From an uncultured Candidatus Saccharibacteria bacterium (lineage in GTDB: Bacteria > Patescibacteriota > Minisyncoccia > JACQLN01): a stretch of DNA of 64,000 bases. The translations under genes and the position numbers were made by a program. Each line of letters starts with the position of its first letter. The first letter of the stretch is position 1. The stretch lies in contig CAZGLK010000001.1 in assembly GCA_964526375.1 (NCBI GenBank), positions 4,811 to 68,810 of the forward strand, written 5' to 3'. Positions 42,043-58,873 of the stretch are shown here, in pieces. The notes under the pieces are model-generated. The model made no database searches. It worked only from the letters and a program-made list of their open reading frames with translations, and was not told where the DNA came from.

Positions 42043-43671
42043 ATGAACTTTCGTGAGGTCCAACTTCGGGTTTTTGACTTGATGACCAGCGGCGCGGCTT
42101 CGCTGGCCGATTATTTGGCATGTCAGCGCGACTTAAAGAATCTAGCCGAGCAACCCCCCTCGTATTTTAGAAATCTGCGGGTCGCTTTTTTAAGTAATTT
42201 TACCCTGCAAGGACTCCCCGAGGTTTTTGAGGTTCAAGCCATTTTTCATAATTTGCGTTCTCAAACCTACCTAAGTCCTTATAACCAATATCCCCAGGAT
42301 ATATTAAATCCCAATAGTGAACTGAACCGATTTAAACCAGACCTGGTTTATTTTTTGATGGACATGACGGATGTCGACCAGGCGCAATTTACGACTTTAT
42401 TGAACAATCTTTTAGATAACGTTAGAGCCAAGGTAATAGTGCCTCAAAGTTTTTTGGCGCTTGAGGCTAATGGTTTTTCCAACCGCAACCTGGTTGGTTT
42501 TGATTGGGACGGTTTTATAGACAAGATAGGCCGTGATGAGTTTTGGTATACCAAATACAAGGAATTGGGCGATTTAAGGCTGTCTCCGGCGGCTTTCTTG
42601 TCTTTGGCTAACGCCATTATGGGCTATGCCGTGTCTGTGGCTGGAGCCGACAAGAAGTGTTTGGTGACGGATTTAGACAATACGCTTTGGCGGGGTGTGG
42701 TTGGCGAGGACGATTTGGAAAGGATTGATCCTAATATCAATTTTCAAGATTTACTCTTGGGGTTTTATAGCCGAGGCGTAGTTTTGGCGGTTAACAGTCG
42801 CAACAACCAAGCCGATGCTTTGGCTGTTTTTGACGATCATCAGGAAATGAGGCTGCGTAAAAATCATTTGGCGGCTTGGCGCATAAATTGGGACGACAAA
42901 GTCACCAACATGAGAAGTTTGGCCGCGGAACTTAATTTGGGATTGGAATCTTTTGTTTTTGTTGATGATGATCCTTTTCAAAGAGGTTTGGTTAAGGAGT
43001 CTTTGCCGGAGGTGGCTGTGCTGGCCCCGGGTGGTTTGGAAGCATATCAAGGATTCACTAAATTGACCCTGACCGAAGAAGACGCGATGCGGGGGCAGAT
43101 GTACGCCCAAGAGCGCGGTCGCAAGGAACTGGAGGCTGTCTTTACCAACCTGGGCGATTTTTTAAGCCAGTTGCAGATGGGCATATCCGTAGAACCAATC
43201 TCGGCCTTAACGATTCCACGAGTTAGCCAACTTACCCAAAAGACCAATCAATTTAACTTGGTTACGCGGCGATACTCGGAAGCAGAAGTGCAAGAATTGA
43301 TCTCCAGCGGCTGGAAGATTTGGACGGCGCAGGCGCGGGATCGTTTTGGCGATTATGGGATAATAGCCGTGGCGGTTGTAGAGCCCCGGTCGAATTCAGT
43401 TTGGAGAATTGATAACTTTTTGTTAAGCTGCCGGGTTCTGGGTCGTGGGCTGGAGACAGCTTTTTTGTCTTACATTTTGGACAAAGCCAGAAATGAAGGC
43501 GTGTTGAAGGTTGTTGGAGAATTTGTTCCCACTTCCAAAAACAAGCCATGCGAGATGTTCTATCAGGGTCATAAATTTAAAGAGGTGGCCCGGCGGGACA
43601 ACTCCACTTTTTACGAATATGACTTTAGCCAGCAGTGTCCCAGCCCGGAATTCATTAAGTTTTTAACCTAG
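42043..43671 (+). CDS. FkbH-like HAD-superfamily protein with C-terminal GNAT-like domain
   Basis: HAD motif I in the FkbH form (VTDLDNTLWRG), HAD motif-containing middle region, C-terminal GNAT-like segment; immediately followed by a carrier protein. Confidence 0.65.
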   Translation: MNFREVQLRVFDLMTSGAASLADYLACQRDLKNLAEQPPSYFRNLRVAFLSNFTLQGLPEVFEVQAIFHNLRSQTYLSPYNQYPQDILNPNSELNRFKPDLVYFLMDMTDVDQAQFTTLLNNLLDNVRAKVIVPQSFLALEANGFSNRNLVGFDWDGFIDKIGRDEFWYTKYKELGDLRLSPAAFLSLANAIMGYAVSVAGADKKCLVTDLDNTLWRGVVGEDDLERIDPNINFQDLLLGFYSRGVVLAVNSRNNQADALAVFDDHQEMRLRKNHLAAWRINWDDKVTNMRSLAAELNLGLESFVFVDDDPFQRGLVKESLPEVAVLAPGGLEAYQGFTKLTLTEEDAMRGQMYAQERGRKELEAVFTNLGDFLSQLQMGISVEPISALTIPRVSQLTQKTNQFNLVTRRYSEAEVQELISSGWKIWTAQARDRFGDYGIIAVAVVEPRSNSVWRIDNFLLSCRVLGRGLETAFLSYILDKARNEGVLKVVGEFVPTSKNKPCEMFYQGHKFKEVARRDNSTFYEYDFSQQCPSPEFIKFLT

Positions 43672-43675
43672 CAGC

Positions 43676-43900
43676 ATGAGTATCGTCGAAGAGGTTTTGT
43701 GTAAAGTTATGGGGGTTGGGTCTGTTTCGGACAGCACCTCTCTCAAGGACATAGCCAGTTGGGATTCTTTTAATAGTTTGGTTTTGCTTAACGAGCTGGA
43801 GAGCCAATTTGAAGTTAGGTTTACTTTGGATGAGGCCACGAGCTTTAATAGCGTGGCTGACATTAAACGAATCCTCCAGCAACGCGGCATTAAGGTCTAA
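43676..43900 (+). CDS. acyl/peptidyl carrier protein, paralog 1 of 3
   Basis: 74 aa, phosphopantetheine Ser in the SWDSFNSL motif; paralogs at 55457 and 58643. Confidence 0.7.
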   Translation: MSIVEEVLCKVMGVGSVSDSTSLKDIASWDSFNSLVLLNELESQFEVRFTLDEATSFNSVADIKRILQQRGIKV

Positions 43901-43908
43901 AATACATT

Positions 43909-44607
43909 ATGAAAACTTTTATTTTAAATTTTTTAAAGAAAAAATATCCCGCCGTAAAGTTTATTCTTGAGTATCAACCCAAAAACATAGAGAGAAAGGA
44001 AATATTGCGGCGGATAATGAATTACGTTTCGGCCTGTCGGATCAGCGGGGATTATTTGGAATTTGGCGTTTACAAGGGATCAACTTTCATTGAGGCCTAT
44101 AAAATGGCCAAGGCCAAGAAATTGGAATCAATGAGGTTTTTTGCCTTTGATTCATTTGAAGGTCTGCCGGAAATATCTAAAAAAGAAAGTGATCCGGTTT
44201 CTTTAGAACAATTTAGGGAAGGTCAATATTCATTCTCGCTGGAGAATTTTAGAAAGAATCTAGAGCGGGCTGCCGTTTCTATGGCTGATGTTAAGATTGT
44301 GCCCGGTTGGTTTGATAAGGTTCTTAACGAGGACACCAAAAACAAAATAGGCCTGGGAGCCATAGCGGTAGTGTGGGTGGACGGGGATCTGTACGAGTCG
44401 GCCGTGCCGGTTTTGGATTTTATAAGAGACCATATTGTTGACGGCACGATTTTGGTTTTTGATAATTGGTTTCTCTTCCGGGGTTCTCCCTTTAGAGGTG
44501 AACAGCGGGCTTTTAGGGAATGGCTTAGCCGGAATCCGGACCTTAGTTTTTCGGAATTTCATAAATACTTTTGGCACGGTAATTCTTTTATTATTCATAA
44601 AAACTGA
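43909..44607 (+). CDS. TylF/MycF-family (macrocin-type) O-methyltransferase
   Basis: GDYLEFGVYKGST… VWVDGDLYES… VFDNW. Confidence 0.7.
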   Translation: MKTFILNFLKKKYPAVKFILEYQPKNIERKEILRRIMNYVSACRISGDYLEFGVYKGSTFIEAYKMAKAKKLESMRFFAFDSFEGLPEISKKESDPVSLEQFREGQYSFSLENFRKNLERAAVSMADVKIVPGWFDKVLNEDTKNKIGLGAIAVVWVDGDLYESAVPVLDFIRDHIVDGTILVFDNWFLFRGSPFRGEQRAFREWLSRNPDLSFSEFHKYFWHGNSFIIHKN

Positions 44608-44611: not shown

Positions 44612-45064
44612 ATGTTTAAGATAACGCAGTTAAAACAAGCCGCGCCGCAGGCCCTAAAAGAAATAAATAATTTGATTTCTAAACTTAGCTTGAGCCGTAT
44701 TCCTCCTAAAAAGCTGACTCGGGACCTTTTTAAGAAGATGCTGGATCAGAAAGATTTTTTTCTTTTTGCGGCGACCGCGCCCAGCGGTGTGGATAACAGG
44801 ATAGTCGGTACTTTAAGCATTTACTTTGTGAGAATACCGACTGGGTTGATTGCCGTGGCCGAAGATTTGATTGTGGAAGAAATTTACCGCCGCTGGGGCG
44901 TGGGGCGCTTGCTTATGGAGAAGGGCATAACCCTGGCCCGCTCCCGACGAGCTAGACACATCAGTCTAAGAACAAATCCCAAGCGGGCGGAGGCCAATAG
45001 GTTGTATCGCTCGTTGGGTTTTAAGCAGATGGCCGCGAATTTTTACCGCATAAACCTTTTTTGA
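44612..45064 (+). CDS. GNAT N-acetyltransferase
   Basis: …EEIYRRWGVGRLLMEKGITLAR… motif A; the start is chosen at MFKITQ 5 nt after the upstream stop, and the ORF-track 5' extension overlaps the upstream gene. Confidence 0.7.
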   Translation: MFKITQLKQAAPQALKEINNLISKLSLSRIPPKKLTRDLFKKMLDQKDFFLFAATAPSGVDNRIVGTLSIYFVRIPTGLIAVAEDLIVEEIYRRWGVGRLLMEKGITLARSRRARHISLRTNPKRAEANRLYRSLGFKQMAANFYRINLF

Positions 45065-46534: not shown

Positions 46535-47542
46535 ATGAATTCAAATAGTATGCCTCAAGTCAATATAGGTGGAATGTCAATTGGTGAAAATCGACCCGTT
46601 TTTATTTTGGCCGAAGTAGGCCTTAACCATAATGGTGACTTAGGTTTAGCTAAAAGACTTATTGATGTGGCTGTGGACGCCGGCTGCCAAGCCGTAAAAT
46701 TTCAAAAAAGAACCATACCCTTGGCTTTCAGCGAGAGTGACTTAAAAAAGCCGCGTGAAGCCCCAGCGGAGGTTTTGGTTAACGCTATTAAACGTGGAGT
46801 CTTGCCCTCAGAGAATGTAGCTCGTCTGGCCGCATCCAATTTTCAGAATGCAACCTACGGCGACGCCAAGTGGGCGTTAGAATTTACCGAGAGTGAATAT
46901 CGTGAAATAGATAGTTATTGTAAAACCAAAGGTATTTTGTGGACAGCTTCTGTTTGGGACGAGGCCAGCGTTGATTTTCTTGAAAGGTTTAATCCACCCG
47001 TTTATAAAATTCCTTCCCCGTCTTTAACCGATGATAGTTTGTTGCGGCGTGTCCGCAGTACAGGGAGGCCTGTAATTCTCTCTACCGGTATGAGCACTGT
47101 TGAAGAAATTGATCATGCCGTGGCTATTTTAGGCGCAAAAGATTTAGTATTGATGCATTGTGTTTCCACTTATCCTTGCGAGTTGGGGGATATTAACCTT
47201 AGGGTGATTGAATTTTTGGCCAAACGCTACAATGTTCCGATAGGTTACAGTGGCCATGAAAAAGGCGTTTACCCATCTGTACATTCTATTGCTCATGGCG
47301 CCTGTATGGTTGAACGTCATATAACTCTGGATAGAACTATGTGGGGTGGGGATCAGGCGGCTAGTTTGGAACCAAAGGGATTGAGCCTGCTGGTTAAGGC
47401 GATTAAGGTTTACGAAAAGTCGCGTGGCGACGGCGTAAAAAGAGTTTTGGAGTCCGAACTAGTTAAAATGAAAACCTTGCGCCGCAATAAGTCGCCCGAT
47501 ATTTCGGTGGTTAGCCAACCAAATATTATACAACATGGCTAA
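46535..47542 (+). CDS. NeuB-family PEP-condensing sugar-acid synthase (sialic/Kdn/nonulosonate synthase-like)
   Basis: …PVFILAEVGLNHNGDLGLAKRLIDVAVDAGCQAVKFQKRT… (cf. NeuB IVAEIGCNHNGS…AVKFQ); C-terminal SAF-like tail. Confidence 0.75.
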   Translation: MNSNSMPQVNIGGMSIGENRPVFILAEVGLNHNGDLGLAKRLIDVAVDAGCQAVKFQKRTIPLAFSESDLKKPREAPAEVLVNAIKRGVLPSENVARLAASNFQNATYGDAKWALEFTESEYREIDSYCKTKGILWTASVWDEASVDFLERFNPPVYKIPSPSLTDDSLLRRVRSTGRPVILSTGMSTVEEIDHAVAILGAKDLVLMHCVSTYPCELGDINLRVIEFLAKRYNVPIGYSGHEKGVYPSVHSIAHGACMVERHITLDRTMWGGDQAASLEPKGLSLLVKAIKVYEKSRGDGVKRVLESELVKMKTLRRNKSPDISVVSQPNIIQHG

Positions 47543-48290
47543 ATCAATGAACGCCCCTTTTTCTGTAAGCAATAAAGTGGTCATAATAACTGGCGGTAGT
47601 GGTTTTTTGGGCGGCCAGTATGTAGAAGCTTTTAGGGCCGGAGGAGCCACAGTAATCAACTGGGATAGAGATACCGGAGTCGATATTGCCAGCGAAGCTT
47701 CGGTTAGAAGGGCCATTCAAAAGGTTATCAACGAACATGGCCGAGTGGATGTTTTGGTTAATAATGCGGCTTTTAATCCGCAGGTGGGAGAGAAAAGTAT
47801 TTCTGAAAACAATTGGGTTCCCTACGAAAAGTTTTCTGTTTCTGCTTGGGAAAAAGAACTGAAAATAAACCTAACCGGCCAGCTTATTACGACACAGGCG
47901 GTAGCGCCGCGTATGATGAAGCGAAAGTCCGGGTCAATTATATTTGTTTCTTCAGATTTTGCTTTTATGGGGCCCAACAACAGTATCTATGAGTCCGGCA
48001 AGTTTAAGGATGTTGCCTATATAACCTCCAAGGCCGGAGTTTTGGGTTTGATGCGTTCTTGGGCGGCTTACCTTGGTCCGTATAATGTTCGGGTTAACGC
48101 TTTGGTGCCTGGCGGCATGTATCGCAACCAACCGCCCGGTTTTGTTAAGAAGAACGGACGTCTTAATATGTTGGGTCGGATGTCACGGCCGGGAGAATAC
48201 AGCGGTGCCGTGCTTTTCTTGGCTTCGGATGCCGCTTCGTATGCGACTGGTTCTTGTTTGGTAGTGGATGGCGGGCGGACTGCTTGGTAA
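47535..48290 (+). CDS. short-chain dehydrogenase/reductase (SDR)
   Basis: VVIITGGSGFLGG… YITSKAGVLGL…. Confidence 0.75.
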   Translation: MAKSMNAPFSVSNKVVIITGGSGFLGGQYVEAFRAGGATVINWDRDTGVDIASEASVRRAIQKVINEHGRVDVLVNNAAFNPQVGEKSISENNWVPYEKFSVSAWEKELKINLTGQLITTQAVAPRMMKRKSGSIIFVSSDFAFMGPNNSIYESGKFKDVAYITSKAGVLGLMRSWAAYLGPYNVRVNALVPGGMYRNQPPGFVKKNGRLNMLGRMSRPGEYSGAVLFLASDAASYATGSCLVVDGGRTAW

Positions 48291-48293
48291 AAA

Positions 48294-49349
48294 ATGAAAT
48301 TTTTAATTTGCGGTTTGGGCTCTATAGGCCAAAGGCATTACAAAAATTTAAAATCCCTCGGATACGATGATATTTTCGTTTTTCGCAGCGGAAGGGGGGA
48401 CTCTGATTTTGTAAAAAAATTCCTTTTGGAATTTAAGCCCAGGGAGATTTTCAATTTGAAGGAAGCTCTGACTTTAAAGCCGGATGTTGTTTTTGTTACG
48501 AATCCTACAGCTTATCACATTCCGACTGCTTTGGAGGCGGCTCGGGCGAATTGTCACATTTTTATTGAGAAGCCCATTTCCCACACGTCAGAAAATTTGG
48601 AGTATCTTCTTAATGAAGTAACGAAGCGGAATCTAATCAGCTATGTGGCTTATCATTTAAGATTTCATCCCTTGTTGTTAACAATCAAGACTTGGCTTAG
48701 CAATAACAAAAGATTTGGTCGGGCAATCTCGGTGCACGCGGCTTTGGGTGAGCGAGTGACCAATTGGCATCCTTGGGAGGATTATCGAACCAGCTATTCT
48801 TGCCGCGGGGATTTGGGCGGTGGAGTTGTCTTAACTCAAAGCCACGAAGTAGATTACCTGCATTGGTTGTTTGGCCCGGTTAGCCAAGTAAGTGCAATGG
48901 GTGGGCAATTAAGCGATTTGGAAATTGATGTTGAAGATGTGGCCAAAGCTATTTTCAAGTTCAAATCCGGCGTAATAGGCTCTCTGGATCTGGATTACTT
49001 GAAAAGCCCGCCTAAAAGAACATTAGAAATAGTTACTACCTCGGGAAAAATTGCCTGGGACTATTTTGGAAAAACAGCCGAATTTGCTTCAATAAAAAAC
49101 CCGGAAGATAATCTAAAAATTTCGGAGCCGGATAATTTTGAGCGCAATACCTTATACTTGCTAGAACTTGAAAATTTTATAAAATGCGTACAGGAAAACA
49201 GGCAGCCATTGAATTCTTTGGCGGAAGCATATGAGGTTTTTAAATTAATACTGGGCGTTAAAAAATCAATGCTTCTGGACGGCCAATCTGTTCGAATTCT
49301 CTCCAGACGTCCGACCACTGGGAAACAGTGGTCGGACGTCTGTATTTAA
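48294..49349 (+). CDS. Gfo/Idh/MocA-family NAD(P)-dependent oxidoreductase
   Basis: MKFLICGLGSIGQRH… N-terminal Rossmann fold of the family. Confidence 0.7.
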   Translation: MKFLICGLGSIGQRHYKNLKSLGYDDIFVFRSGRGDSDFVKKFLLEFKPREIFNLKEALTLKPDVVFVTNPTAYHIPTALEAARANCHIFIEKPISHTSENLEYLLNEVTKRNLISYVAYHLRFHPLLLTIKTWLSNNKRFGRAISVHAALGERVTNWHPWEDYRTSYSCRGDLGGGVVLTQSHEVDYLHWLFGPVSQVSAMGGQLSDLEIDVEDVAKAIFKFKSGVIGSLDLDYLKSPPKRTLEIVTTSGKIAWDYFGKTAEFASIKNPEDNLKISEPDNFERNTLYLLELENFIKCVQENRQPLNSLAEAYEVFKLILGVKKSMLLDGQSVRILSRRPTTGKQWSDVCI

Positions 49350-52069: not shown

Positions 52070-52588
52070 ATTATGGATTCAAAACTGAAAAATAGATTCT
52101 CTAATGTAAAACTTCTGGTTTCTGACTTTGACGGCGTAATGACAGACGGCTATGTTTACTTGGATGAGAACGGCCGGGAGTCGGTTAAGTGCAGCCGCAA
52201 GGACGGTTTGGGTGTGGAACTTCTTAAAAACGCTGGTGTAGAAGTAATGGTTTTGTCCAAGGAAAATAACTCGGTGGTTAAAGCCAGGTGCCGCAAACTG
52301 AAAATAAAATGCCGGCAGGGAATCTCCAGCGGGGCTGGCAAGGTTGGTATTTTAAAGGAAATACTTAAGGCGAAAAATCTTGATAATAAGTCAAGTTGCT
52401 ATATTGGTGACGATATCAATGATGTCGCTGCCATAAAATACGCGGCTGTGGGTGTTGCCGTGGCCGACAGCCACCCGCTGGTTAAAAAAGCGGCCGACTA
52501 TATCACCAAGGCCCGGGGTGGTCACCATGCCGTCAGAGAACTGGCGGAATTGATATTGGAGTCTCAAGGCACCGAGCTTAAGATTTAA
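52070..52588 (+). CDS. KdsC-type HAD phosphatase (sugar-acid phosphate phosphatase)
   Basis: VSDFDGVMTDG… GDDINDV…; the start is taken at MDSKLKN. Confidence 0.75.
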   Translation: MMDSKLKNRFSNVKLLVSDFDGVMTDGYVYLDENGRESVKCSRKDGLGVELLKNAGVEVMVLSKENNSVVKARCRKLKIKCRQGISSGAGKVGILKEILKAKNLDNKSSCYIGDDINDVAAIKYAAVGVAVADSHPLVKKAADYITKARGGHHAVRELAELILESQGTELKI

Positions 52589-52592
52589 AACC

Positions 52593-53942
52593 ATGGAAAC
52601 CATTTTTTTGTTTGTGGATAAAGATTTATTGATACGAGACCTGCTTACCGGCGATTTTTTGCCGTATCTTGCTTCCAAATTTCAAGCGGTAGTTTTTATG
52701 CAGGAGAAATCATATGCAAGAAACAAGGATTTTTTGTTTGCCGGGAGCGATCGTGTTGAATATAAAATCTGGCCGGTTTACAACAATAAATTTTTAGACT
52801 GGATGAAAGCGATTCGGAGCGTGTTCGTAAGGCAATTTGACCACCTGAACGTGCAGCAGTTCAAAAAAAGAAAGCTTCCCGGAACTAAATTCAATCGCTG
52901 GCTGCTGCCATTGGCTAGCGCCGGCCGTCGTTTTTTTACCCTGAAGTTTTTTAAGTCTTTAGAAAAACAGCTTCTTTCCGGTAAATCAAAGGAGATTTTT
53001 AGAGGTTATGTTAACAAATACCGTCCCAGTTGCGTTGTAACCGCGTCTTGCGGCATTATGAATTTTGAGGCCGAAGGGTTGCTGTTGGCGGAATTTTTTG
53101 GTATCCCCACGGTAGCCGTTAACTTTAATTGGGACAATTTGACGTCTAAAGTGCGAAGCTTAAGGTTGCCGGATAAATTGGTTGTTTGGAATGAACCAAT
53201 CAAGAATGTCGCTTTGGAGATGCATGGGTATGAAGCTAATGAAGTGTTTGTTTCGGGGATTATCAGGTTTGATCCCTATTTTAACAAGAGTGCTCCCGAG
53301 TTGCCCGGTCGGGAGGGGTTTTTAAGGTCTAAAGGATTGGATCCCAACAATAAAACGATTGTCTATGCCAGCACGGCTGATTTTGTGTATCCTTTTCAAA
53401 AGGAATTGATAAGTCTGCTGATTGAATTGAGGGATCAAGGCAAACTTTTGGGCCAGCCCAATATCTTTGTTCGTCTCCATTACAAGGATCCAATAGACGG
53501 CTACCGCCGTTTTTTAAACCAGCCCAATGTTTACATAGAAAAATATGAATCTACTTCCTTGGAGCGGGATGGTTTGAATTTGAAGGCGACCCTGCTGTAC
53601 GGTGATGTCCATTTAAATTATGCGTCCACTGTCTCTTTAGATGTCTGTGCCCTAAACCGGCCGCTTATTAATTTGGCCTTTCCGGCCGATGTTGTGGCAA
53701 GATTCCCCAATCAGGATTTTCCGCATTACCGGCCTTTAGTGGAAACCGGCGCGGCGCGGCTGGCTCGCGACCCGATTGAACTGGTTAATCTGATCAACGG
53801 TTATTTTCTTAATCCCGACTTAGATTCAGAAAAACGTGGGGAAATTGCCGCAAATTTGGTTTGTAACGCGGACGGTCTGGCCCATAAGCGGGTTGTGGAT
53901 TTTCTTGTAAATATGGCCGCCGGCAGCTCCAAGAAGGATTGA
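52593..53942 (+). CDS. GT-B-fold transferase, TagF/KpsC-like family, paralog 4 of 5
   Basis: …NFNWDNLTSKVRSL… IIRFDPYF… KTIVYAST…. Confidence 0.6.
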   Translation: METIFLFVDKDLLIRDLLTGDFLPYLASKFQAVVFMQEKSYARNKDFLFAGSDRVEYKIWPVYNNKFLDWMKAIRSVFVRQFDHLNVQQFKKRKLPGTKFNRWLLPLASAGRRFFTLKFFKSLEKQLLSGKSKEIFRGYVNKYRPSCVVTASCGIMNFEAEGLLLAEFFGIPTVAVNFNWDNLTSKVRSLRLPDKLVVWNEPIKNVALEMHGYEANEVFVSGIIRFDPYFNKSAPELPGREGFLRSKGLDPNNKTIVYASTADFVYPFQKELISLLIELRDQGKLLGQPNIFVRLHYKDPIDGYRRFLNQPNVYIEKYESTSLERDGLNLKATLLYGDVHLNYASTVSLDVCALNRPLINLAFPADVVARFPNQDFPHYRPLVETGAARLARDPIELVNLINGYFLNPDLDSEKRGEIAANLVCNADGLAHKRVVDFLVNMAAGSSKKD

Positions 53943-55417
53943 AGCTCCCCGCCCCAAGTGTGAGTTTCACTGGCCCATGGCGCGATTTGGTTACAATTAA
54001 GTTGGCAGCGGAGTTATTAAGTTATGACGGCATGAAGACCATTCTGATCAGTATTTTACAGGGCATTGAAGCCAAAAATATTTTAAGAACTGAGATTTGC
54101 AAAACGCTCTTGGCAACACCCGACATAAGGCTTGTTTTTTTGGTTGGCACCAAGGACAAATTGGATTATTATGGCCGGGAGTTTACGCATCCCAGGATGA
54201 TCTACGAGCTGGTTTTGCCCGTTAAGGTTTCAAGGTGGGATCGTTTTTTGGGTTTCTTAAAATTTAAGCTGATTAACACCGAGACCATAGATTTAAGAAG
54301 AAAACTGGCAGCTAAAGACAATCGCGTCAGTTTTTTTCTGTACCCGTTCATTTTTTTGTTTAATAGAATTTTTGCCCGAAGAATTTTTAGAAAATTTGTT
54401 AGGCAGTTAGACCAGAGCTTGGCCCCGAGTGCCGATTTTTCCTGTCTTTTTGACAAGTATAATGTTGCCGCGGTTTTCCTGGCTCATCTTTTTGACGATA
54501 CGGAGGCCGCTTTGCTGCGCGAGGCGAAGCGAAGGGGAATTGTAAATGTGGGGCTTATAAATTCTTGGGACAAATTAACAGCCCGGTGCATGTTGAGGGT
54601 GTTGCCGGACAAATTGCTGGTTTACAACGATATCGTGAAAAAAGAGGCTGTTGAGTATGCCGATATGCCGCCGGAGAACGTTGTAGCGGTTGGCGTGCCG
54701 CATTATGATCAGTATTTTACCGATAAACCCCCTTCGCTCGATGAATTTTATAAGAGGGCGAACATTGATTCTAAAAAAAGGATTATTCTTTATTCTCCCA
54801 TAGGCAAGTATTTTAGCGACTCGGATTGGGATATAATAGATTTACTCAACGGTTTTACGGAAAACGAGCTAAGGAGTTATAATGTAGAATTGCTGGTTAG
54901 ATTTCAGCCCAATGATTTTGTCAGTGAGATTGAAATCAAGAAAAGGCCTTGGCTTAAATACGATCTGCCCGGCATTAGATTTTCCAATAAGCGCGGGGTT
55001 GACTGGGATATGAATTTTGCGGATCTAAAAAATCTGTTTGACACTCTGTATTACTGTTCACTCCTGGTTTGTTACGCGGCCAGTATAACCGTTGAGGCTG
55101 CTATTTTGGGCAAGCCGGTTATAAATATAAATTTTGAGGTTAAAGACAAGCAAAAACATTCCCAAACGCCAACCTATTTTTACGGCATGAGCCACTATCG
55201 CAAGGTTTTAGCAACCGGCGGCATCCGTTTGGTTAATAGTAAAGAGGAGTTGTTGAAATGGATTAAAATATATTTGGATCAGCCCGAAATTGATGCTGAC
55301 GGCAGATCTAGACTTGTCAGCGAGCAGTGTTGGAGACAAGACGGCCGGGCCGGGCAAAGGATTGCGGGGTTTTTAATAAGCGAAATTGGTTCAAACCGAG
55401 ACGGTGCGGTGGCTTAA
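53939..55417 (+). CDS. GT-B-fold transferase, TagF/KpsC-like family, paralog 5 of 5
   Basis: …LINSWDKLTARCMLRV… GVPHYDQYF… RIILYSPIGKYF… RQDGRAGQR. Confidence 0.6.
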   Translation: MKLPAPSVSFTGPWRDLVTIKLAAELLSYDGMKTILISILQGIEAKNILRTEICKTLLATPDIRLVFLVGTKDKLDYYGREFTHPRMIYELVLPVKVSRWDRFLGFLKFKLINTETIDLRRKLAAKDNRVSFFLYPFIFLFNRIFARRIFRKFVRQLDQSLAPSADFSCLFDKYNVAAVFLAHLFDDTEAALLREAKRRGIVNVGLINSWDKLTARCMLRVLPDKLLVYNDIVKKEAVEYADMPPENVVAVGVPHYDQYFTDKPPSLDEFYKRANIDSKKRIILYSPIGKYFSDSDWDIIDLLNGFTENELRSYNVELLVRFQPNDFVSEIEIKKRPWLKYDLPGIRFSNKRGVDWDMNFADLKNLFDTLYYCSLLVCYAASITVEAAILGKPVININFEVKDKQKHSQTPTYFYGMSHYRKVLATGGIRLVNSKEELLKWIKIYLDQPEIDADGRSRLVSEQCWRQDGRAGQRIAGFLISEIGSNRDGAVA

Positions 55418-55456: not shown

Positions 55457-55687
55457 ATGGACAGGTTAGAAAATTTAATAGCTAGGGTTTTGAATGTTGA
55501 ACCCACCGCGGTAAACGACAACACCAGCCCCGATAATGTGGAAAGCTGGGATTCTTTTAGCAGTTTAATTTTGGTTACGGAACTGGAAAAGAATTTTAAA
55601 GTTAAGTTTAGTTTGGAAGAGGTTGTTCTGGTTAAAAATGTGGGGGACATTAAAAAAGCCTTAAGGAATCATGGCGTGAAAGTATGA
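55457..55687 (+). CDS. acyl carrier protein, paralog 2 of 3
   Basis: 76 aa, SWDSFSSL motif. Confidence 0.7.
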   Translation: MDRLENLIARVLNVEPTAVNDNTSPDNVESWDSFSSLILVTELEKNFKVKFSLEEVVLVKNVGDIKKALRNHGVKV

Positions 55688-56112
55688 CTTTAATTTCCAG
55701 CAACCTGGAGTTTGAGCAAATTAAGATAGGGGATGTTTTTTCGTTTAAAAAACTTATAGATGACGAATTGATTGATCGTTTTGCCGTGCTGGTGGGTGAT
55801 TACAATCCTCTGCATACGGATATTGCTTATGCTAAAGAAAATGGTTTTGATGGCCGATTGGCTCAAGGTCTGTTGACGGGAAGTTTATTTTCAACCCTGG
55901 TGGGTATGTTTTGCCCGGGTCGGCGGGCCTTATACTTATCGCAGAGTTTAAATTTTAAAAAACCCGTGGTTGCCGGCAGAGAGGTGTTAATTAAGGGCGA
56001 GGTATTGGATAAATCTGAAAGTACCAGAGTTATTAGGTTAAAAACTTTGGTTTGTGACGAGAAAGAAGATATAGCCGTAGAGGGGGAGGCTTTAATTAAA
56101 GTCGGGTTGTAA
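55684..56112 (+). CDS. MaoC-like (R)-specific enoyl dehydratase (hot-dog fold)
   Basis: …GDYNPLHTDIAYAKENGFDGRLAQG…. Confidence 0.7.
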   Translation: MTLISSNLEFEQIKIGDVFSFKKLIDDELIDRFAVLVGDYNPLHTDIAYAKENGFDGRLAQGLLTGSLFSTLVGMFCPGRRALYLSQSLNFKKPVVAGREVLIKGEVLDKSESTRVIRLKTLVCDEKEDIAVEGEALIKVGL

Positions 56113-56143: not shown

Positions 56144-56839
56144 ATGAGATTCAAAAACAAAGTTATTCTTATTTTAGGGGGCACGGGGCACATTGGTTCG
56201 GCCGCGGCCGCGGCTTTTGAAAGAGAGGGCGCCAAAGTATGCCGCCACGGGCGATCCGGAAAATACAAAGCTGATCTAAGAAACGAAAAAGATATTGATG
56301 ATTTGGTTTCTAGTGTATTGGCTGATCATGGGCGGGTTGATGTTGTGGTTAATTCGGTTAGCCATCCCGTTAAAATAAATAGTTTTGACAAAAAAACATG
56401 GTCCGATTTTAAGGATCAGTTTCTGGTTCAGCTGGGTGGCGGTTGGGAAGTAATACAAAGATTGCTGCCGGGCATGAAAACAAACAGAGAGGGGAGAATA
56501 ATAAATATTCTCACGTCTTATGCCGTCGGCCAGCCGCCTTCTGGTTTAGCGGATTATGTCACGGCCAAATATGCTTTATTGGGTTTGACAAAGGCATTGG
56601 CTAAGGAGTTGGGCAAGTATGGAATTACCGTTAATGCAGTTTCGCCCAGTTTAATAAAAAACGCTTTTTCTGGTGGCGTGCCGGAGAAGCTCTTGGATTT
56701 GATCGTTGCCCAAACGCCGTTGGGCCGTTTAGCCACAGCGGAAGATGTTGCCGGTAGCGTGTTATTTTTGGCTTCCGATGAGGCCGCTTATATAACTGGA
56801 CAGAATATCGTCGTGGCTGGCGGAAATGCAATGCTATGA
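56144..56839 (+). CDS. SDR-family 3-oxoacyl-(ACP) reductase-like (FabG-like)
   Basis: ILGGTGHIGSA… YVTAKYALLGLTKALAKE…. Confidence 0.7.
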   Translation: MRFKNKVILILGGTGHIGSAAAAAFEREGAKVCRHGRSGKYKADLRNEKDIDDLVSSVLADHGRVDVVVNSVSHPVKINSFDKKTWSDFKDQFLVQLGGGWEVIQRLLPGMKTNREGRIINILTSYAVGQPPSGLADYVTAKYALLGLTKALAKELGKYGITVNAVSPSLIKNAFSGGVPEKLLDLIVAQTPLGRLATAEDVAGSVLFLASDEAAYITGQNIVVAGGNAML

Positions 56840-56884
56840 AATTAAATCAACCAAGGTAGTATATAGTAGCACGGTCTAGCGTCC

Positions 56885-58627
56885 ATGACAAAGAATATTA
56901 CTAACATAGAACCTAATTTGGCTGATTATGATAAAACCCGTGCTAATTTCTCTTGGGAGGATTGGCATAGGGAGTTTTATTTCTATAACCATGGCAACAG
57001 GGTTAACTATGCCTATGAGGTTACCAACCATCAAGTGGAGAAGGGCAACGGCGGTGTGGCGGCGATAATAGAACAAAGGGCTGACGGAAGCATCGACAGG
57101 ATAACTTACCGGGGATTAGCCCGGGCCACCGATGTAATTGCCGGCAACCTCAAGTCTCTTGGTTTAAAACCCGGAGAGAGGTTTGCGATCTACGCCCCTA
57201 GATCAATCGATTATGCGAAAGTACTTTTGGCGTCTGTAAAATGCGGCGCCGTGGCTGTTCCTCTTTTTGATGCTTTTGGCCCGGGCGCGATCAAGGATAG
57301 AATTAATGATTGTTCAGCCAGCTGGATTTATGTTGCCGGTGATTTGTTCAATAATGTGCGTCTCGGGGAATTACCTTCTCTGAAGAAGGTATTAATGAAT
57401 AGATTGCCGGCCGGGCTTGAGAAAACCAAGAGTGATGTTCGGTTTGTTACATTGGCAGAGCTCATGAGGGGTAAGGTTGGTTGGGACGCAGTTAGTTTCG
57501 GGGATTTAGAAACAGCCTTTATTATTCATTATACCTCCGGCTCCACAGCTAAGCCCAAGGGTGTGTTGTTGGCCAACAGGACCATGGTGGGCCATTTGGT
57601 TACGGGACTATATGTTTTAGATTTGCGGCGGGGTGACAGGTTATGGAATACCGGCGATCCGGGCTGGATAACAGGAATGGTTTATAATTTTTTTGCACCT
57701 CTGTTACTAGGTGCTACTACTCACATATACCATGGTCCTTTTCATCCCCAGGGTTGGTCTAATTTTATGAGAAAGATGAAAATAACGGTTTGGTACAGCA
57801 CACCTACGGCTTTCAGGTTGCTCCGTTATTATAATGCGCCAGTAAACAGAAAAAATACTCCCTGTTTGAGGCATATAGTCAGTGCCGGTGAGCCGCTTAA
57901 TTCCAGTTTGGTTGACTGGACCATGGAAAATCTTGGAATTCCCATACATGATTCTTGGTACATGACGGAAAATGGGCATCAGCTTATAAATAATTACCGC
58001 TGTCTGACGGTTAAAAAAGGTTCCATGGGCAAGCCGTTTCCGGGAATTGAGGCCGCGATTATTGATGAAAAATGCAGAAAGTTGCCGGTCGGAAAAGTTG
58101 GGCGTCTGGCTGTAAAAACTCCCTGGCCCGGTTTAATGAAAACAATCTGGAATAACCGTAAAAAATTTGATTCCTATTTTGAGAAAGGATGGTATATATC
58201 TGGAGACATGGCATATCGGGATAGGGATGGATATTTTTGGTTCCAGGGTCGGGAGGATGACATGATAAAAAGCGCTGCCGAGAGAATAAGCCCCTTCGAG
58301 ATAGAAAATATCTTGGTTTCTCATCCGGCTGTTGGGGAGGCGGCAGTTATAGAAAAACCGGACGACTTGTATGGGGGAATTGTTAAAGCCTTTGTGGTGC
58401 TAAAACCAAATTTCGCTTCTTCGGAGTCTGTCAGGGAAGACATAGTAAGACACGTGAGAGACAATTTATCCACTTCTCAAGTCCCGCGAGAGGTGGAGTT
58501 CGTGGGTGATTTGCCAAAAACAAGGAGTGGTAAAATAATGAGACGGCTGCTAAGGGCCAAAGAAATGAACATGGATCTCGGCGATGTTTCTACATTGGAT
58601 ACGGAAATGAAAACAGATCTTAAGTGA
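56885..58627 (+). CDS. AMP-dependent synthetase/ligase (acetyl/acyl-CoA or acyl-ACP synthetase-like)
   Basis: IHYTSGSTAKPKGV… GDPGWITGM… YISGDMAYRDRDGYFWFQGREDDMIKS… LPKTRSGKIMRR. Confidence 0.8.
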   Translation: MTKNITNIEPNLADYDKTRANFSWEDWHREFYFYNHGNRVNYAYEVTNHQVEKGNGGVAAIIEQRADGSIDRITYRGLARATDVIAGNLKSLGLKPGERFAIYAPRSIDYAKVLLASVKCGAVAVPLFDAFGPGAIKDRINDCSASWIYVAGDLFNNVRLGELPSLKKVLMNRLPAGLEKTKSDVRFVTLAELMRGKVGWDAVSFGDLETAFIIHYTSGSTAKPKGVLLANRTMVGHLVTGLYVLDLRRGDRLWNTGDPGWITGMVYNFFAPLLLGATTHIYHGPFHPQGWSNFMRKMKITVWYSTPTAFRLLRYYNAPVNRKNTPCLRHIVSAGEPLNSSLVDWTMENLGIPIHDSWYMTENGHQLINNYRCLTVKKGSMGKPFPGIEAAIIDEKCRKLPVGKVGRLAVKTPWPGLMKTIWNNRKKFDSYFEKGWYISGDMAYRDRDGYFWFQGREDDMIKSAAERISPFEIENILVSHPAVGEAAVIEKPDDLYGGIVKAFVVLKPNFASSESVREDIVRHVRDNLSTSQVPREVEFVGDLPKTRSGKIMRRLLRAKEMNMDLGDVSTLDTEMKTDLK

Positions 58628-58642
58628 AACCATCTCTTAAAT

Positions 58643-58873
58643 ATGAAGCAGAAACTCGAGAAAATTTTAGGGAAAGTTTTTGGAGTAAATCCAAAGAGAA
58701 TCACAGACAAAACAAGTCCAGAAAACTTGCCCAGTTGGGATTCTTTTAACGGTTTGGTTTTGGTGCGGGAGCTGGAAAAGAATTTCAATATTAAGTTGGA
58801 TGTTGAAGAGATGGCTAAGATCAAAAGAGTGGCGGATATAAGAAGATTACTGAAACGTTACGGCCGTCTTTAG
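58643..58873 (+). CDS. acyl carrier protein, paralog 3 of 3
   Basis: 76 aa, SWDSFNGL motif. Confidence 0.7.
   Translation: MKQKLEKILGKVFGVNPKRITDKTSPENLPSWDSFNGLVLVRELEKNFNIKLDVEEMAKIKRVADIRRLLKRYGRL

What the first reader, a model, noticed from the sequence alone, without database searches (positions are those of the whole stretch)
42043..58873. Carrier-protein-centred acyl-tailoring module (FkbH-like + 3 ACPs + acyl ligase + MaoC + FabG-like + FemAB/GNAT-like) inside a glycan locus
Seen in sequence: an FkbH-like HAD/GNAT protein (DLDNTLW motif) is immediately followed by an ACP, a TylF-family O-methyltransferase and a GNAT. Twelve kb further on, a second ACP is followed by a MaoC dehydratase, a FabG-like SDR, an AMP-ligase (580 aa) and a third ACP, then a FemAB-like GNAT-fold protein. 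The three ACPs are close paralogs (SWDSF motif). Established: FkbH loads a glyceryl unit from 1,3-bisphosphoglycerate onto a dedicated ACP (methoxymalonyl-ACP pathway). Ligase/FabG/MaoC sets make 3-hydroxyacyl or enoyl thioesters, and FemAB/GNAT-like enzymes transfer acyl groups to amino sugars. Inference: the locus decorates a sugar with ACP-delivered O-methylated glyceroyl and/or 3-hydroxybutyryl-type groups, as known on some pseudaminic/legionaminic acids and O-antigens. An ACP-dependent pathway is unusual in a reduced CPR-like genome, where fatty-acid synthesis is typically absent.
Basis: partly seen in the sequence, partly recalled or inferred. Interest (0 to 1): 0.8.

Follow-up and report, generated by a model that had tools for sequence, protein, structure and literature searches.

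The report
Carrier-protein system decorating a surface sugar
Inside a surface-sugar gene cluster, a small-genome groundwater bacterium (Parcubacteria) carries enzyme sets that build small hydroxy-acid groups on carrier proteins and most likely attach them to the sugar; the genes are real, and they are a widespread but little-studied variant of a known kind of pathway.

Summary
They are an FkbH loader, three acyl carrier proteins (ACPs) with the conserved serine, a TylF-type O-methyltransferase, a small GNAT, a MaoC dehydratase, a FabG-like reductase and an acetyl-CoA-synthetase-like ligase. Two 337/370-aa proteins (here GNATL) are predicted tandem-GNAT acyltransferases. The two halves lie on one 78-kb contig.

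Comparison with about 170 related loci shows one recurring unit: a loader (FkbH or an AMP-ligase), an ACP, optional tailoring enzymes and a tandem-GNAT transferase. Natural fusions support this (ACP+GNATL, FkbH+ACP+GNATL, ligase+GNATL).

- The unit sits among nonulosonic-acid (nine-carbon sialic-acid-like sugar) genes: NeuB, a CMP-transferase and TagB-like transferases.
- A sister genome has ACP-MaoC-reductase-GNATL without the ligase. Ligase-ACP3-MOSC is therefore an insertion.
- MaoC and the reductase most likely process the FkbH product. I favour glyceryl to pyruvoyl to D-lactyl, with 3-hydroxybutyryl as the rival.

The claim that this is unusual in candidate-phyla-radiation (CPR) bacteria fails, because FkbH homologues are abundant in Patescibacteria. 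The closest precedent is the Campylobacter jejuni flagellin-glycan locus, which has an FkbH-domain gene and a di-O-methylglyceroyl pseudaminic acid product.

Verdict: a new variant of a known kind, of moderate interest. The acyl groups and the acceptor remain unproven.

The parts
39928..41040 (+). GNATL1: 370-aa paralogue of the tandem-GNAT acyltransferase. Proposed to transfer the acyl group from ACP to the sugar.
   Evidence: 24% identical to 59454, E 6e-15. Weak PF00583 hit. The order GNATL1-PDA-FkbH is conserved in sister locus L167.
40989..41996 (+). Polysaccharide deacetylase (PDA, NodB-type; called from 41037 in the NCBI record). Proposed to free an amine for re-acylation.
   Evidence: PF01522 at 89.6 bits. 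Lies directly upstream of FkbH in L006, L007 and L167.
42043..43671 (+). FkbH-type loader: N-terminal domain, HAD phosphatase domain and C-terminal GNAT-fold domain. Has DLDNT at residues 210-214 and invariant Cys463 and Cys206.
   Evidence: TIGR01686 at 282.6 bits against a cut-off of 146.65. Invariant residues from alignment A1. Model and fold matches.
43676..43900 (+). ACP1 (74 aa, Ser31).
   Evidence: PF00550 at 26.5 bits. Serine aligned with AcpP Ser36.
43909..44607 (+). TylF-family O-methyltransferase.
   Evidence: PF05711 at 74.4 bits. Follows a loader-ACP pair in L167 (FkbH-ACP-TylF) and in L087 (ligase-ACP-TylF, 282 bits).
44612..45064 (+). Small GNAT (150 aa), probably an acetyl-CoA N-acetyltransferase. 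It travels with the next TagB-like gene.
   Evidence: PF00583 at 43.4 bits. The GNAT-TagF3 pair is conserved in L087 and L167.
55457..55687 (+). ACP2 (76 aa, Ser33). It is the closest counterpart of the ACP that follows FkbH in relatives.
   Evidence: PF00550 at 27.6 bits. The ACPs of L006 and L007 score 88.6 and 87.5 bits to ACP2, 84.5 and 81.1 to ACP3, and 49.8 and 53.8 to ACP1.
55684..56112 (+). MaoC/hotdog (R)-hydratase-dehydratase with a GDYNPLH motif (Asp39, His44).
   Evidence: PF01575 at 56.1 bits. Motif position. Scores 136 bits to the FkbH-linked MaoC of L007, against 78-89 bits to ligase-linked ones.
56144..56839 (+). FabG-like SDR reductase with a YxxxK motif at residue 138.
   Evidence: PF13561 at 156 bits. 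Best NCBIfam matches are FabG and acetoacetyl-CoA reductase, all below their cut-offs.
56885..58627 (+). AcsA-like AMP-ligase with an altered acyl pocket (Ala334, Tyr359, Asn363). Proposed acyl-ACP ligase for a small (hydroxy)acid. First gene of the inserted segment.
   Evidence: NF003313 at 622 bits, below the 729 cut-off. PDB 9g79 at 499 bits. Pocket changes are shared by its clade. Clade members sit next to ACPs in glycan loci. Absent from L166.
58643..58873 (+). ACP3 (76 aa, Ser34), partner of the ligase.
   Evidence: PF00550 at 24.9 bits. The ligase-linked ACP of L087 scores best to ACP3, at 92.6 bits.
58986..59363 (+). 125-aa MOSC-like ORF of uncertain role. Last gene of the inserted segment.
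   Evidence: PF03473 at 22.2 bits, just below the 22.7 cut-off. Called as a gene on the Logan contig. Absent from L166.
59377..59407 (+). Terminator-like hairpin (12 pairs followed by a T run) at the right end of the insertion.
59454..60467 (+). GNATL2: 337-aa tandem-GNAT acyltransferase. Proposed acyl-ACP:sugar acyltransferase.
   Evidence: AlphaFold pLDDT 91; Foldseek best matches are NMT, Eis and 3n7z. Family has 4,685 representatives at E<=1e-10. Fusions to ACP, FkbH+ACP and a ligase. Follows ACP-MaoC-SDR in L007 and L166.
46535..52588 (.). Sugar-acid core between the two modules: NeuB-type synthase (46535-47542), SDR (47535-48290), Gfo/Idh/MocA oxidoreductase (48294-49349), 653-aa unknown (49346-51307, minus strand), PseF-like CMP-transferase (51276-52025, minus strand) and KdsC-like phosphatase (52019-52588).
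   Evidence: Same gene order in L166.
52593..55417 (+). Two of the five TagB/TagF-like (BFO_1060-like) putative nonulosonic-acid transferases. The others are at 27459-28850, 38562-39935 and 45089-46465.
   Evidence: Weak PF04464 hits on all five; NF046086 on two of them (38562, 45089), far below cut-off. Paralogy shown. TagB-domain Pse/Leg transferases of T. forsythia are described in PMC5420450.

Best explanation
The locus encodes a cytoplasmic glycan-acylation system with four kinds of part: loaders, dedicated ACPs, tailoring enzymes that act on the ACP-bound acyl group, and tandem-GNAT transferases.

Shown here: the families, the conserved catalytic motifs, the synteny and the gene fusions that link loader, ACP and tandem GNAT.

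Inferred:
1. FkbH takes a glyceryl unit from 1,3-bisphosphoglycerate and loads it on ACP1 and ACP2.
2. On ACP1 the TylF-type enzyme O-methylates it. GNATL1 then transfers (O-methyl)glyceroyl to an amine that the adjacent NodB-type deacetylase has freed. This deacetylate-then-reacylate order is the same logic as LpxC/LpxD, and as proposed for Cj1295 in C. jejuni.
3. On ACP2 the MaoC dehydratase converts glyceryl to enol-pyruvoyl and the FabG-like reductase reduces it to D-lactyl. GNATL2 transfers it.
4. An inserted unit adds a third stream. The AcsA-derived ligase, which has an enlarged pocket, adenylates a free small (hydroxy)acid and loads ACP3.
5. The acceptor is most likely the nonulosonic acid (or an amino sugar) made by the NeuB/phosphatase/CMP-transferase genes. 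The five TagB-like transferases would then install it.
For: Families and motifs.

Loader, ACP and GNATL as one unit:
- 58 of 80 FkbH loci have an ACP within 1.5 kb.
- L007 reads PDA-FkbH-ACP-MaoC-SDR-GNATL. L006 reads PDA-FkbH-ACP-GNATL.
- Fusion proteins exist: ACP+GNATL (P0191, P0212, P0223), FkbH_N+HAD+ACP+GNATL (P0226, whose FkbH part is 35% identical to the window's, E 6e-99) and AMP-ligase+GNATL (P0243).

MaoC and the reductase act on the FkbH product:
- They are adjacent to FkbH-ACP in 7 (both) or 24 (either) of 80 loci from many phyla, including archaea.
- L166 has ACP-MaoC-SDR-GNATL2 with no ligase.
- The window's MaoC and SDR score highest to the FkbH-linked ones of L007 (136 and 162.7 bits).

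Chemical precedents:
- FkbH loading modules of polyketide synthases are tabulated as 1,3-BPG + ACP giving D-lactyl-ACP (PMC7901079).
- N-(R)-lactyl pseudaminic acid and N-(R)-2-hydroxypropionyl perosamine exist in nature (PMC7281560).
- 2,3-di-O-methylglyceroyl-Pse occurs in C. jejuni, which has the FkbH-domain gene cj1302.
- N-glyceroyl Pse occurs in T. forsythia.

Ligase as an ACP loader:
- Its 61-64% identical relatives all have an ACP nearby in glycan loci: adjacent in three of four, about 2 kb downstream in L090.
- L087 reads PanE-type 2-oxoacid reductase-ligase-ACP-TylF.
- The clade carries specific pocket changes, SVGEP to SAGEP and WW.TETG to WYMTENG.

Glycan context.
Against: - No experiment bears on this locus. 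The identities of the acyl groups and of the acceptor are inferred.
- No phosphopantetheinyl transferase was found among the window's ORFs, so holo-ACP formation depends on a gene elsewhere.
- No aminotransferase lies in the locus. The KdsC-like phosphatase together with a NeuB lacking a SAF domain could point to a KDN-like sugar with no ring amine. The acceptor would then have to be another amino sugar or a hydroxyl group.
- FabG-type SDRs normally reduce 3-oxo groups, not 2-oxo groups. MaoC is PhaJ-like, which fits C4 substrates equally well.
- That one FkbH serves two ACPs 12 kb apart is an assumption.
- TylF-family enzymes often methylate sugars rather than acyl groups.
Confidence: 0.65

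Rival explanations
1. Module B makes (R)-3-hydroxybutyryl-ACP. The ligase loads acetoacetate, crotonate or 3-hydroxybutyrate on ACP. The FabG-like reductase and the MaoC hydratase interconvert the C4 thioesters. GNATL2 then puts N-3-hydroxybutyryl on the sugar.
For: - MaoC is PhaJ-like and the SDR resembles acetoacetyl-CoA reductase and FabG.
- In the window they are adjacent to the ligase, whose pocket is larger than that of an acetate enzyme.
- L086 and L089 pair a ligase-ACP with a MaoC.
- Hydroxybutyryl nonulosonic acids are known (abbreviation list in PMC5378307; PMC8157484).
Against: - In L166 the same ACP-MaoC-SDR-GNATL2 block has no ligase.
- In 24 of 80 FkbH loci, MaoC and/or an SDR sit next to FkbH-ACP with no C4 source in view.
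- The window's MaoC scores higher to FkbH-linked copies than to ligase-linked ones.
Confidence: 0.25
2. A Dlt-like system. The ligase and carrier protein esterify a teichoic-acid-like polyol-phosphate polymer built by the five TagF-like enzymes.
For: All five paralogues hit PF04464, the CDP-glycerol glycerophosphotransferase family. A ligase plus a small carrier protein is the DltA/DltC layout (from my own knowledge).
Against: - No CDP-glycerol or CDP-ribitol synthesis gene and no DltB/DltD-type protein is in the window.
- The only cytidylyltransferase is PseF/NeuA-like, and it sits with NeuB.
- TagB-domain proteins are proven Pse/Leg transferases in T. forsythia (PMC5420450).
- The transferase partner here is a cytoplasmic tandem GNAT that occurs fused to ACP.
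Confidence: 0.06
3. The ligase is simply the cell's acetyl-CoA synthetase, supplying acetyl-CoA to the GNATs, and its position next to ACP3 is incidental.
For: Best matches are acetate-CoA ligases: NF003313 at 622 bits and PDB 9g79 at 499 bits.
Against: - It scores below the equivalog cut-off of 729.
- Residues I recall as lining the acetate pocket are changed throughout its clade.
- All four close relatives with enough flank have an ACP close by in a glycan locus.
- A ligase+GNATL fusion exists.
Confidence: 0.05
4. A fragment of a methoxymalonyl-ACP, polyketide or fatty-acid operon that landed in the glycan locus.
For: FkbH, an ACP and an O-methyltransferase are three of the five methoxymalonyl-ACP functions (from my own knowledge).
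Against: - No ketosynthase, no FkbK-type 3-hydroxyacyl-CoA dehydrogenase and no FkbI-type acyl-CoA dehydrogenase is in the window.
- The arrangement is conserved together with glycan genes in sister and distant genomes.
Confidence: 0.02

Closest known systems
Campylobacter jejuni NCTC 11168 flagellin-glycosylation genes around cj1295-cj1304, whose product is pseudaminic acid carrying N-(2,3-di-O-methylglyceroyl)
   Same: An FkbH-domain gene (cj1302) lies inside a nonulosonic-acid glycosylation locus (PMC7099621). The product carries an O-methylated glyceroyl amide. The proposed order is removal of the N-acetyl group followed by re-acylation (PMC3068675). The window has FkbH, an ACP, an O-methyltransferase and a deacetylase in the same kind of locus.
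   Different: The proposed deacylase there is aminopeptidase-like (Cj1295), not NodB-type. I could not compare the C. jejuni genes directly, and its pathway is not reconstituted either. The window lacks PseB/C/H/G-type genes. It adds a MaoC/reductase branch, a ligase loader and two tandem GNATs.
FkbH/FkbJ step of methoxymalonyl-ACP and tetronate biosynthesis (glyceryl-ACP from 1,3-bisphosphoglycerate)
   Same: An FkbH-family loader above the TIGR01686 cut-off, with the HAD motif and a conserved cysteine, followed directly by a dedicated ACP.
   Different: There are no FkbK/FkbI oxidation enzymes and no ketosynthase. The acyl group is handed to a GNAT-type transferase in a sugar locus, not to a polyketide synthase.
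FkbH-containing loading modules of trans-AT polyketide synthases that give D-lactyl-ACP
   Same: The same set of activities: FkbH, ACP, a dehydratase and a ketoreductase. PMC7901079 tabulates the net reaction as 1,3-BPG + ACP giving D-lactyl-ACP. That these modules contain DH and KR domains is from my memory.
   Different: Here the activities are separate small proteins, with a MaoC hotdog and a FabG-like SDR instead of polyketide-synthase domains. No chain extension follows.
Tannerella forsythia Pse5Am7Gra glycan and its TagB-domain nonulosonic-acid transferases (Tanf_01245 / BFO_1060)
   Same: An N-glyceroyl nonulosonic acid installed by a TagB-like transferase (PMC5378307, PMC5420450). Two of the window's five TagB/TagF-like paralogues weakly match the BFO_1060 model.
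   Different: Scores are far below the family cut-off (63 and 32 bits against 200). As of 2017 the genes for the glyceroyl group in T. forsythia were described as unknown.
Vibrio cholerae O1 perosamine N-acylation with tetronate (rfbK-O: ACP, AMP-ligase-like and others)
   Same: From memory only: a dedicated ACP and an adenylating enzyme inside an O-antigen locus supply a small hydroxy-acyl group to an amino sugar.
   Different: Not compared here. It has no FkbH and no tandem GNAT that I know of.

Membership tests
FkbH family (TIGR01686) | Profile score above the curated cut-off | tested here: met
   282.6 bits against a cut-off of 146.65, covering profile positions 3-320 of 323.
FkbH family (TIGR01686) | HAD DxDxT motif and a conserved cysteine for the acyl-enzyme intermediate | tested here: met
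   D210, D212, T214, C463 and C206 are invariant in 19 homologues. Which cysteine is catalytic rests on memory of OzmB work.
FkbH family (TIGR01686) | Uses 1,3-bisphosphoglycerate and loads a glyceryl unit on a partner ACP | not testable with these tools
   Only adjacency can be shown: an ACP 4 nt downstream, and 58 of 80 relatives with an ACP within 1.5 kb.
Acyl carrier protein (PF00550) | Profile above cut-off and a serine at the phosphopantetheine attachment site | tested here: met
   26.5, 27.6 and 24.9 bits against 20.8. Ser31, Ser33 and Ser34 align with AcpP Ser36.
Acyl carrier protein (PF00550) | A phosphopantetheinyl transferase available to make holo-ACP | tested here: inconclusive
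   No PF01648-type hit among about 50 window proteins scanned. The rest of the genome was not available.
Methoxymalonyl-ACP pathway (FkbG-K) | FkbK-type 3-hydroxyacyl dehydrogenase and FkbI-type acyl-CoA dehydrogenase alongside FkbH and FkbJ | tested here: not met
   Neither family was found in the window. The O-methyltransferase is TylF-type.
   Only PF00583 at 19-21 bits. The fold is a tandem GNAT, but the top 50 PDB matches are NMT, Eis and 3n7z.
Acetate-CoA ligase (NF003313 equivalog) | Score above the equivalog cut-off and an acetate pocket (Val and Trp) | tested here: not met
   622 bits against 729. SAGEP and WYMTENG replace SVGEP and WW.TETG. The role of these residues as pocket residues is from memory.
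(R)-specific enoyl hydratase / MaoC (PF01575) | Profile above cut-off, with the hydratase-2 Asp and His | tested here: met
   56.1 bits against 27. GDYNPLH at residues 38-44.
Nonulosonic-acid pathway (synthase plus CMP-activation) | NeuB-family synthase and a CMP-sugar synthetase in the locus | tested here: met
   PF03102 at 244 bits and PF02348 at 74.6 bits. The TIGR03569 and TIGR03584 matches are below their equivalog cut-offs, so the sugar type is open.
Pseudaminic / legionaminic acid pathway | 4,6-dehydratase, aminotransferase and N-acetyltransferase of the PseB/C/H or LegB/C/H type | tested here: not met
   No DegT-type aminotransferase in the window. Relative L006 has one in a second gene set.
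Dlt-type carrier-protein esterification | DltB (MBOAT) and DltD partners | tested here: not met
   No such families among the window proteins.

The most novel reading that the evidence does not exclude
Loader (FkbH or an AcsA-derived ligase), ACP and tandem GNAT form a widespread, uncharacterised three-part system. It would be the missing genetic basis for N-glyceroyl, O-methylglyceroyl and N-lactyl decorations of nonulosonic acids and amino sugars across bacteria and archaea. In this Parcubacteria lineage, one FkbH would feed two ACP-specific branches that give two different acyl groups. The ligase clade would be a new kind of acyl-ACP synthetase for small 2-hydroxy acids.
Probability: 0.35. 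Interest if true: 0.65.

Novelty: new variant of a known kind. Interest (0 to 1): 0.5.

Why it matters
Nonulosonic acids on microbial surfaces carry many unusual N-acyl groups, including glyceroyl, lactyl, hydroxybutyryl and O-methylglyceroyl. These shape recognition by phages and immune systems. The genes that make and attach these groups are largely unassigned. The T. forsythia authors called the glyceroyl step 'a major challenge' (PMC5378307), and I found no open-access paper linking FkbH, an ACP and a polysaccharide.

The synteny and fusion evidence here points to a concrete enzyme set that can be tested: loader, ACP, optional dehydratase/reductase/methyltransferase, and tandem GNAT. The transferase family has thousands of members and no dedicated Pfam model.

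The result also shows that small-genome Patescibacteria, which generally lack fatty-acid synthesis, commonly keep ACP-based chemistry for surface decoration. That corrects the idea that this is exceptional.

Tried and rejected
1. Concatenated contigs. I suspected the window joined two contigs, because NCBI record JACQLP010000020.1 ends at window 49336, inside a perfect hairpin. Three exact-protein look-ups across the junction found nothing, and another gave only short contigs. I rejected the idea after four proteins from both sides proved to be on a 77,981-bp NCBI contig and L166 showed the same gene order.
2. Pfam gave no hit for FkbH. NCBIfam was needed.
4. The genome-collection scan did not return the window's own genome. 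The best relatives were 45-48% identical.
5. I looked for a phosphopantetheinyl transferase, an aminotransferase, a ketosynthase and FkbI/FkbK in the window and found none.
6. Literature searches for FkbH with lactyl or pyruvoyl gave mostly unrelated hits. The polyketide DH-KR-FkbH-ACP architecture therefore rests partly on memory and on one table.
7. The profile search of GNATL against PDB sequences gave only marginal GNAT hits. The fold search was needed.
8. The promoter scan found no more sites than chance (30 against 32 expected).

Full report
**What is there.** Between 39.9 and 60.5 kb the window carries, all on the + strand and mostly separated by 4-45 nt or overlapping, two groups of genes.

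- Group A is a 370-aa GNAT-like protein (GNATL1, 39928), a NodB-type polysaccharide deacetylase (40989), FkbH (42043), ACP1 (43676), a TylF-family O-methyltransferase (43909) and a 150-aa GNAT (44612).
- Group B is ACP2 (55457), MaoC (55684), a FabG-like SDR (56144), an AMP-ligase (56885), ACP3 (58643), a 125-aa MOSC-like ORF (58986) and a 337-aa GNAT-like protein (GNATL2, 59454).

- FkbH scores 282.6 bits on TIGR01686 (cut-off 146.65). Pfam has no hit for it.
- The three ACPs pass PF00550. TylF, MaoC, the SDR and AMP-binding are all above their cut-offs.
- The FkbH model (pLDDT 89.5) has an N-terminal part plus HAD domain that matches PDB 3slr, and a C-terminal GNAT-fold domain. 'HAD/GNAT' is therefore correct.
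- D210, D212, T214, C463 and C206 are invariant among 19 homologues.
- The ACP serines (Ser31, Ser33, Ser34 in the WDSF motif) align with Ser36 of E. coli AcpP, as in 65 of 66 FkbH-linked ACPs.
- The ACPs are 42-46% identical to each other, so they are paralogues of one family but not close ones.
- MaoC has the GDYNPLH hydratase motif and the SDR has YxxxK.

**Is it one locus?** One NCBI record of this DNA (JACQLP010000020.1, 41,947 bp) corresponds exactly to window 7390-49336. It ends inside a perfect 17-bp hairpin between the convergent genes at 48294 and 49346. That raised the possibility that the two groups lie on different contigs.

The exact-sequence look-up removed the concern. FkbH, the CMP-transferase, the ligase and GNATL2 are all recorded on an NCBI contig of 77,981 bp, named 'Parcubacteria group bacterium'. 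An independent Patescibacteria genome (L166) has the same gene order across that point. I treat the window as contiguous.

**What the relatives show.** I fetched 80 loci encoding FkbH relatives from species-representative genomes. I searched their six-frame ORFs with all 40 proteins of the window's glycan locus.

- An ACP lies within 1.5 kb of FkbH in 58 of 80 loci.
- A MaoC homologue lies within 3 kb in 15, an SDR in 16, both in 7 and either in 24.
- The hosts range from Saccharibacteria and other Patescibacteria to Clostridia, Nitrospinota, Alphaproteobacteria, Nitrososphaerales and Micrarchaeota.

The two closest loci (Saccharibacteria, 45-48% identity) are the most informative.

- L007 reads NeuB, TagB-like, deacetylase, FkbH, ACP, MaoC, SDR, GNATL, UDP-GlcNAc 2-epimerase, CMP-transferase.
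- L006 reads TagB-like, deacetylase, FkbH, ACP, GNATL, NeuB, 2-epimerase, CMP-transferase.

Two sister genomes fix the history of the window's own arrangement.

- L167 (FkbH 79% identical) repeats window 34.6-46.4 kb gene for gene, including GNATL1-deacetylase-FkbH-ACP-TylF-GNAT-TagB-like.
- L166 (GNATL2 66% identical) repeats window 46.5-63 kb. It reads NeuB, SDR, Gfo, a 655-aa protein (-), CMP-transferase (-), KdsC-like, two TagB-like, ACP, MaoC, SDR, GNATL2, GT2 and two epimerases. It has no ligase, no second ACP and no MOSC-like ORF.

The segment 56885-59363 is therefore an insertion in the window's lineage. A terminator-like hairpin at 59377-59407 lies at its right edge.

The block ACP2-MaoC-SDR-GNATL2 is the counterpart of the FkbH-linked block of L007.

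- The ACPs that follow FkbH in L006 and L007 score 88.6 and 87.5 bits to ACP2, and 84.5 and 81.1 bits to ACP3. They score only 49.8 and 53.8 bits to ACP1.
- The window's MaoC and SDR score 136 and 162.7 bits to those of L007.
- The MaoC copies linked to ligases score only 78-89 bits.

**The transferase.** GNATL1 and GNATL2 are distant paralogues (24% identity, E 6e-15). They have only marginal PF00583 hits and no FemAB/PF13480 hit.

The GNATL2 model is confident (pLDDT 91, pTM 0.90). It is a tandem GNAT whose best PDB matches are N-myristoyltransferases, Eis and 3n7z, at TM 0.53-0.62.

A profile of the family finds 4,685 cluster representatives at E<=1e-10 and 284 at E<=1e-30 among 1.84 billion. 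Among these are natural fusions:

- three proteins with an N-terminal PP-binding domain (P0191, P0212, P0223);
- one with an unknown domain plus ACP (P0208);
- one 1,068-aa protein reading FkbH_N, HAD, PP-binding, GNATL (P0226), whose FkbH part is 35% identical to the window's over its full length, E 6e-99;
- one AMP-ligase+GNATL protein (P0243).

This is the strongest evidence that loader, ACP and tandem GNAT work together, and that either an FkbH or an adenylating enzyme can be the loader.

**The ligase.** It is about 55% identical by eye to a 572-aa acetyl-CoA synthetase structure (9g79, 499 bits) and scores 622 bits on NF003313, below the 729 cut-off.

A scan of metagenome contigs returned five close relatives (61-64% identity). 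The four with enough flank all lie in glycan loci with an ACP nearby.

- In L086 and L089 an ACP and a MaoC are transcribed divergently from the ligase.
- In L090 an ACP lies about 2 kb downstream.
- L087 reads PanE/ApbA-type 2-oxoacid reductase, ligase, ACP, TylF, then 2-epimerase, CMP-transferase, D-2-hydroxyacid dehydrogenase, TagB-like and deacetylase.

This clade has SAGEP and WYMTENG where AcsA-like and classical acetyl-CoA synthetases have SVGEP and WW.TETG. From memory, that Val and that Trp line the acetate pocket, so the changes point to a slightly larger, possibly hydroxylated, acid. One of the search patterns was WYMTENGH, so the shared motif helped retrieve these loci. The ACP adjacency did not.

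In L087 a ligase replaces FkbH in front of ACP-TylF. This suggests the two loaders are interchangeable entry points for small hydroxy acids.

**The glycan context.**

- Between the two groups lie a NeuB-family synthase without a SAF domain (PF03102, 244 bits), an SDR and a Gfo/Idh/MocA oxidoreductase.
- On the minus strand lie a conserved 653-aa protein of unknown function and a PseF-like cytidylyltransferase. A KdsC-like phosphatase follows on the plus strand.
- Five paralogues with a weak TagB/TagF (PF04464) match are spread through the locus in two subgroups. Two of them also match the BFO_1060 model, far below its cut-off.
- In Tannerella forsythia, TagB-domain proteins of that family (Tanf_01245, TFUB4_00887) are required to add the pseudaminic or legionaminic acid derivative, including N-glyceroyl Pse (PMC5420450, PMC5378307).
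- Upstream are GT4 and GT2 transferases, a flippase-like protein, RmlB/RmlD-like enzymes and a C-methyltransferase.
- The window has no aminotransferase, no ketosynthase and no phosphopantetheinyl transferase.

**How it most likely works.** The parts and their linkage are shown. The rest is inferred.

1. FkbH loads a glyceryl unit from 1,3-bisphosphoglycerate on its ACPs. This is the established activity of the family, recalled from the methoxymalonyl-ACP and tetronate literature.
2. On ACP1 the TylF-type enzyme O-methylates it, and GNATL1 transfers it.
3. On ACP2 the MaoC dehydratase removes water across C2-C3 to give the enol of pyruvoyl-ACP. The SDR reduces it to D-lactyl-ACP, and GNATL2 transfers it. 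This is the net chemistry tabulated for FkbH loading modules of polyketide synthases (1,3-BPG + ACP giving D-lactyl-ACP; PMC7901079).
4. The products exist in nature. N-(R)-lactyl pseudaminic acid occurs in the Psychrobacter marincola capsule, and N-(R)-2-hydroxypropionyl perosamine in Vibrio cholerae O144 (PMC7281560).
5. The deacetylase directly upstream of FkbH is conserved in L006, L007 and L167. It would remove an N-acetyl group so the amine can be re-acylated. The same order was proposed for Cj1295 in C. jejuni, whose locus holds the FkbH-domain gene cj1302 and whose product is 2,3-di-O-methylglyceroyl-Pse (PMC3068675, PMC7099621).
6. The inserted ligase-ACP3 pair adds a third acyl stream from a free acid.

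I put 0.65 on the general model. I put roughly 0.4 on each specific acyl assignment.

**Rivals.**

It does not explain why MaoC and the SDR follow FkbH-ACP in many loci, or sit without any ligase in L166.
- A Dlt-like esterification of a teichoic-acid-like polymer is unlikely. There are no CDP-polyol genes and no DltB/DltD, and the transferase is a cytoplasmic GNAT.
- A housekeeping acetyl-CoA synthetase and a stray polyketide or fatty-acid fragment are both unlikely, for the reasons given under the rival explanations.

**Comparison and novelty.** The kind is known: dedicated ACPs and loaders inside glycan loci that supply unusual N-acyl groups. Examples are the C. jejuni flagellin island and, from memory, the V. 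cholerae O1 tetronate genes.

What I did not find described is the three-part unit with its large tandem-GNAT family, the fusions, the stand-alone FkbH-ACP-MaoC-SDR cassette in sugar loci across bacteria and archaea, and the AcsA-derived ligase clade. In the searchable library only one paper links FkbH to a nonulosonic-acid locus, and none links FkbH, ACP and polysaccharide in a glycan context. Subscription journals were not searched.

The claim that an ACP pathway is unusual for a CPR genome is not supported. The FkbH search returned 7,704 proteins at E<=1e-10. Most of the named hits among the top 120 are Parcubacteria, Patescibacteria, Paceibacterota, Sungbacteria and Harrisonbacteria.

I rate it a new variant of a known kind, with interest 0.5.

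**Limits.** There is no biochemical or glycan-structure evidence for this organism. The sugar type is open: the NeuB and CMP-transferase scores are below their equivalog cut-offs, and a KdsC-like phosphatase could mean a 9-phosphate route or a KDN-like sugar. The acceptor atom is unknown, and the source of holo-ACP is not in the window.

Noticed in passing
window 21936-24551: At least a dozen short tandem arrays of 7-nt units (3.4-7.6 copies; for example AATTTCC, CCCTATA, AATTACC, CCCTAAA) lie inside the reading frames of three glycosyltransferase genes (21387, 23738, 24874 region). They are translated as odd linkers such as SKFQ and PKPYTL runs. A period of 7 is not a multiple of 3, so a change in copy number would shift the frame. 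This may be phase variation of surface-glycan genes in a Parcubacteria genome.
   Followed up: partly
window 5050-5850: A stretch of about 0.8 kb with 54-57% G+C against about 44% around it. It has no convincing ORF and no Rfam match even at E<=1. Its predicted fold is much more stable than shuffles (z -4.9 on the + strand, -3.5 on the - strand, 20 shuffles). It may be an undescribed structured RNA.
   Followed up: partly
window 49303-49342: A perfect 17-bp hairpin with a 5-nt loop spans the ends of two convergent genes. The shorter NCBI record of this DNA ends inside its 3' arm, at 49336. It is probably a bidirectional terminator and a spot where assemblies break.
   Followed up: yes
window 49346-51307 (- strand): A 653-aa protein with two weak Pol-beta/nucleotidyltransferase-like hits and no family assignment. 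It is conserved at the same position, between the Gfo-type oxidoreductase and the CMP-transferase, in sister locus L166 (655 aa). It may be an unknown step of the sugar-acid pathway.
   Followed up: no
L006 16055-17017; L007 10196-11158; L087 14962-15927 and 6932-7906: A D-isomer-specific 2-hydroxyacid dehydrogenase directly follows the CMP-transferase in three related loci. In L087 a PanE/ApbA 2-oxoacid reductase directly precedes the ligase. These enzymes could make the free D-2-hydroxy acid (glycerate or lactate) that is loaded on ACP. Neither is present in the window.
   Followed up: partly
window 27459-28850, 38562-39935, 45089-46465, 52593-53942, 53939-55417: Five TagB/TagF-like paralogues in two subgroups ({27459, 45089, 53939} and {38562, 52593}) within one locus. 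That is unusually many putative nonulosonic-acid or polyol-phosphate transferases for one small genome.
   Followed up: partly
window 4078-4768: An overlapping pair of small genes that look like a nucleotidyltransferase and HEPN-type toxin-antitoxin module. Judged by eye from the translations only.
   Followed up: no
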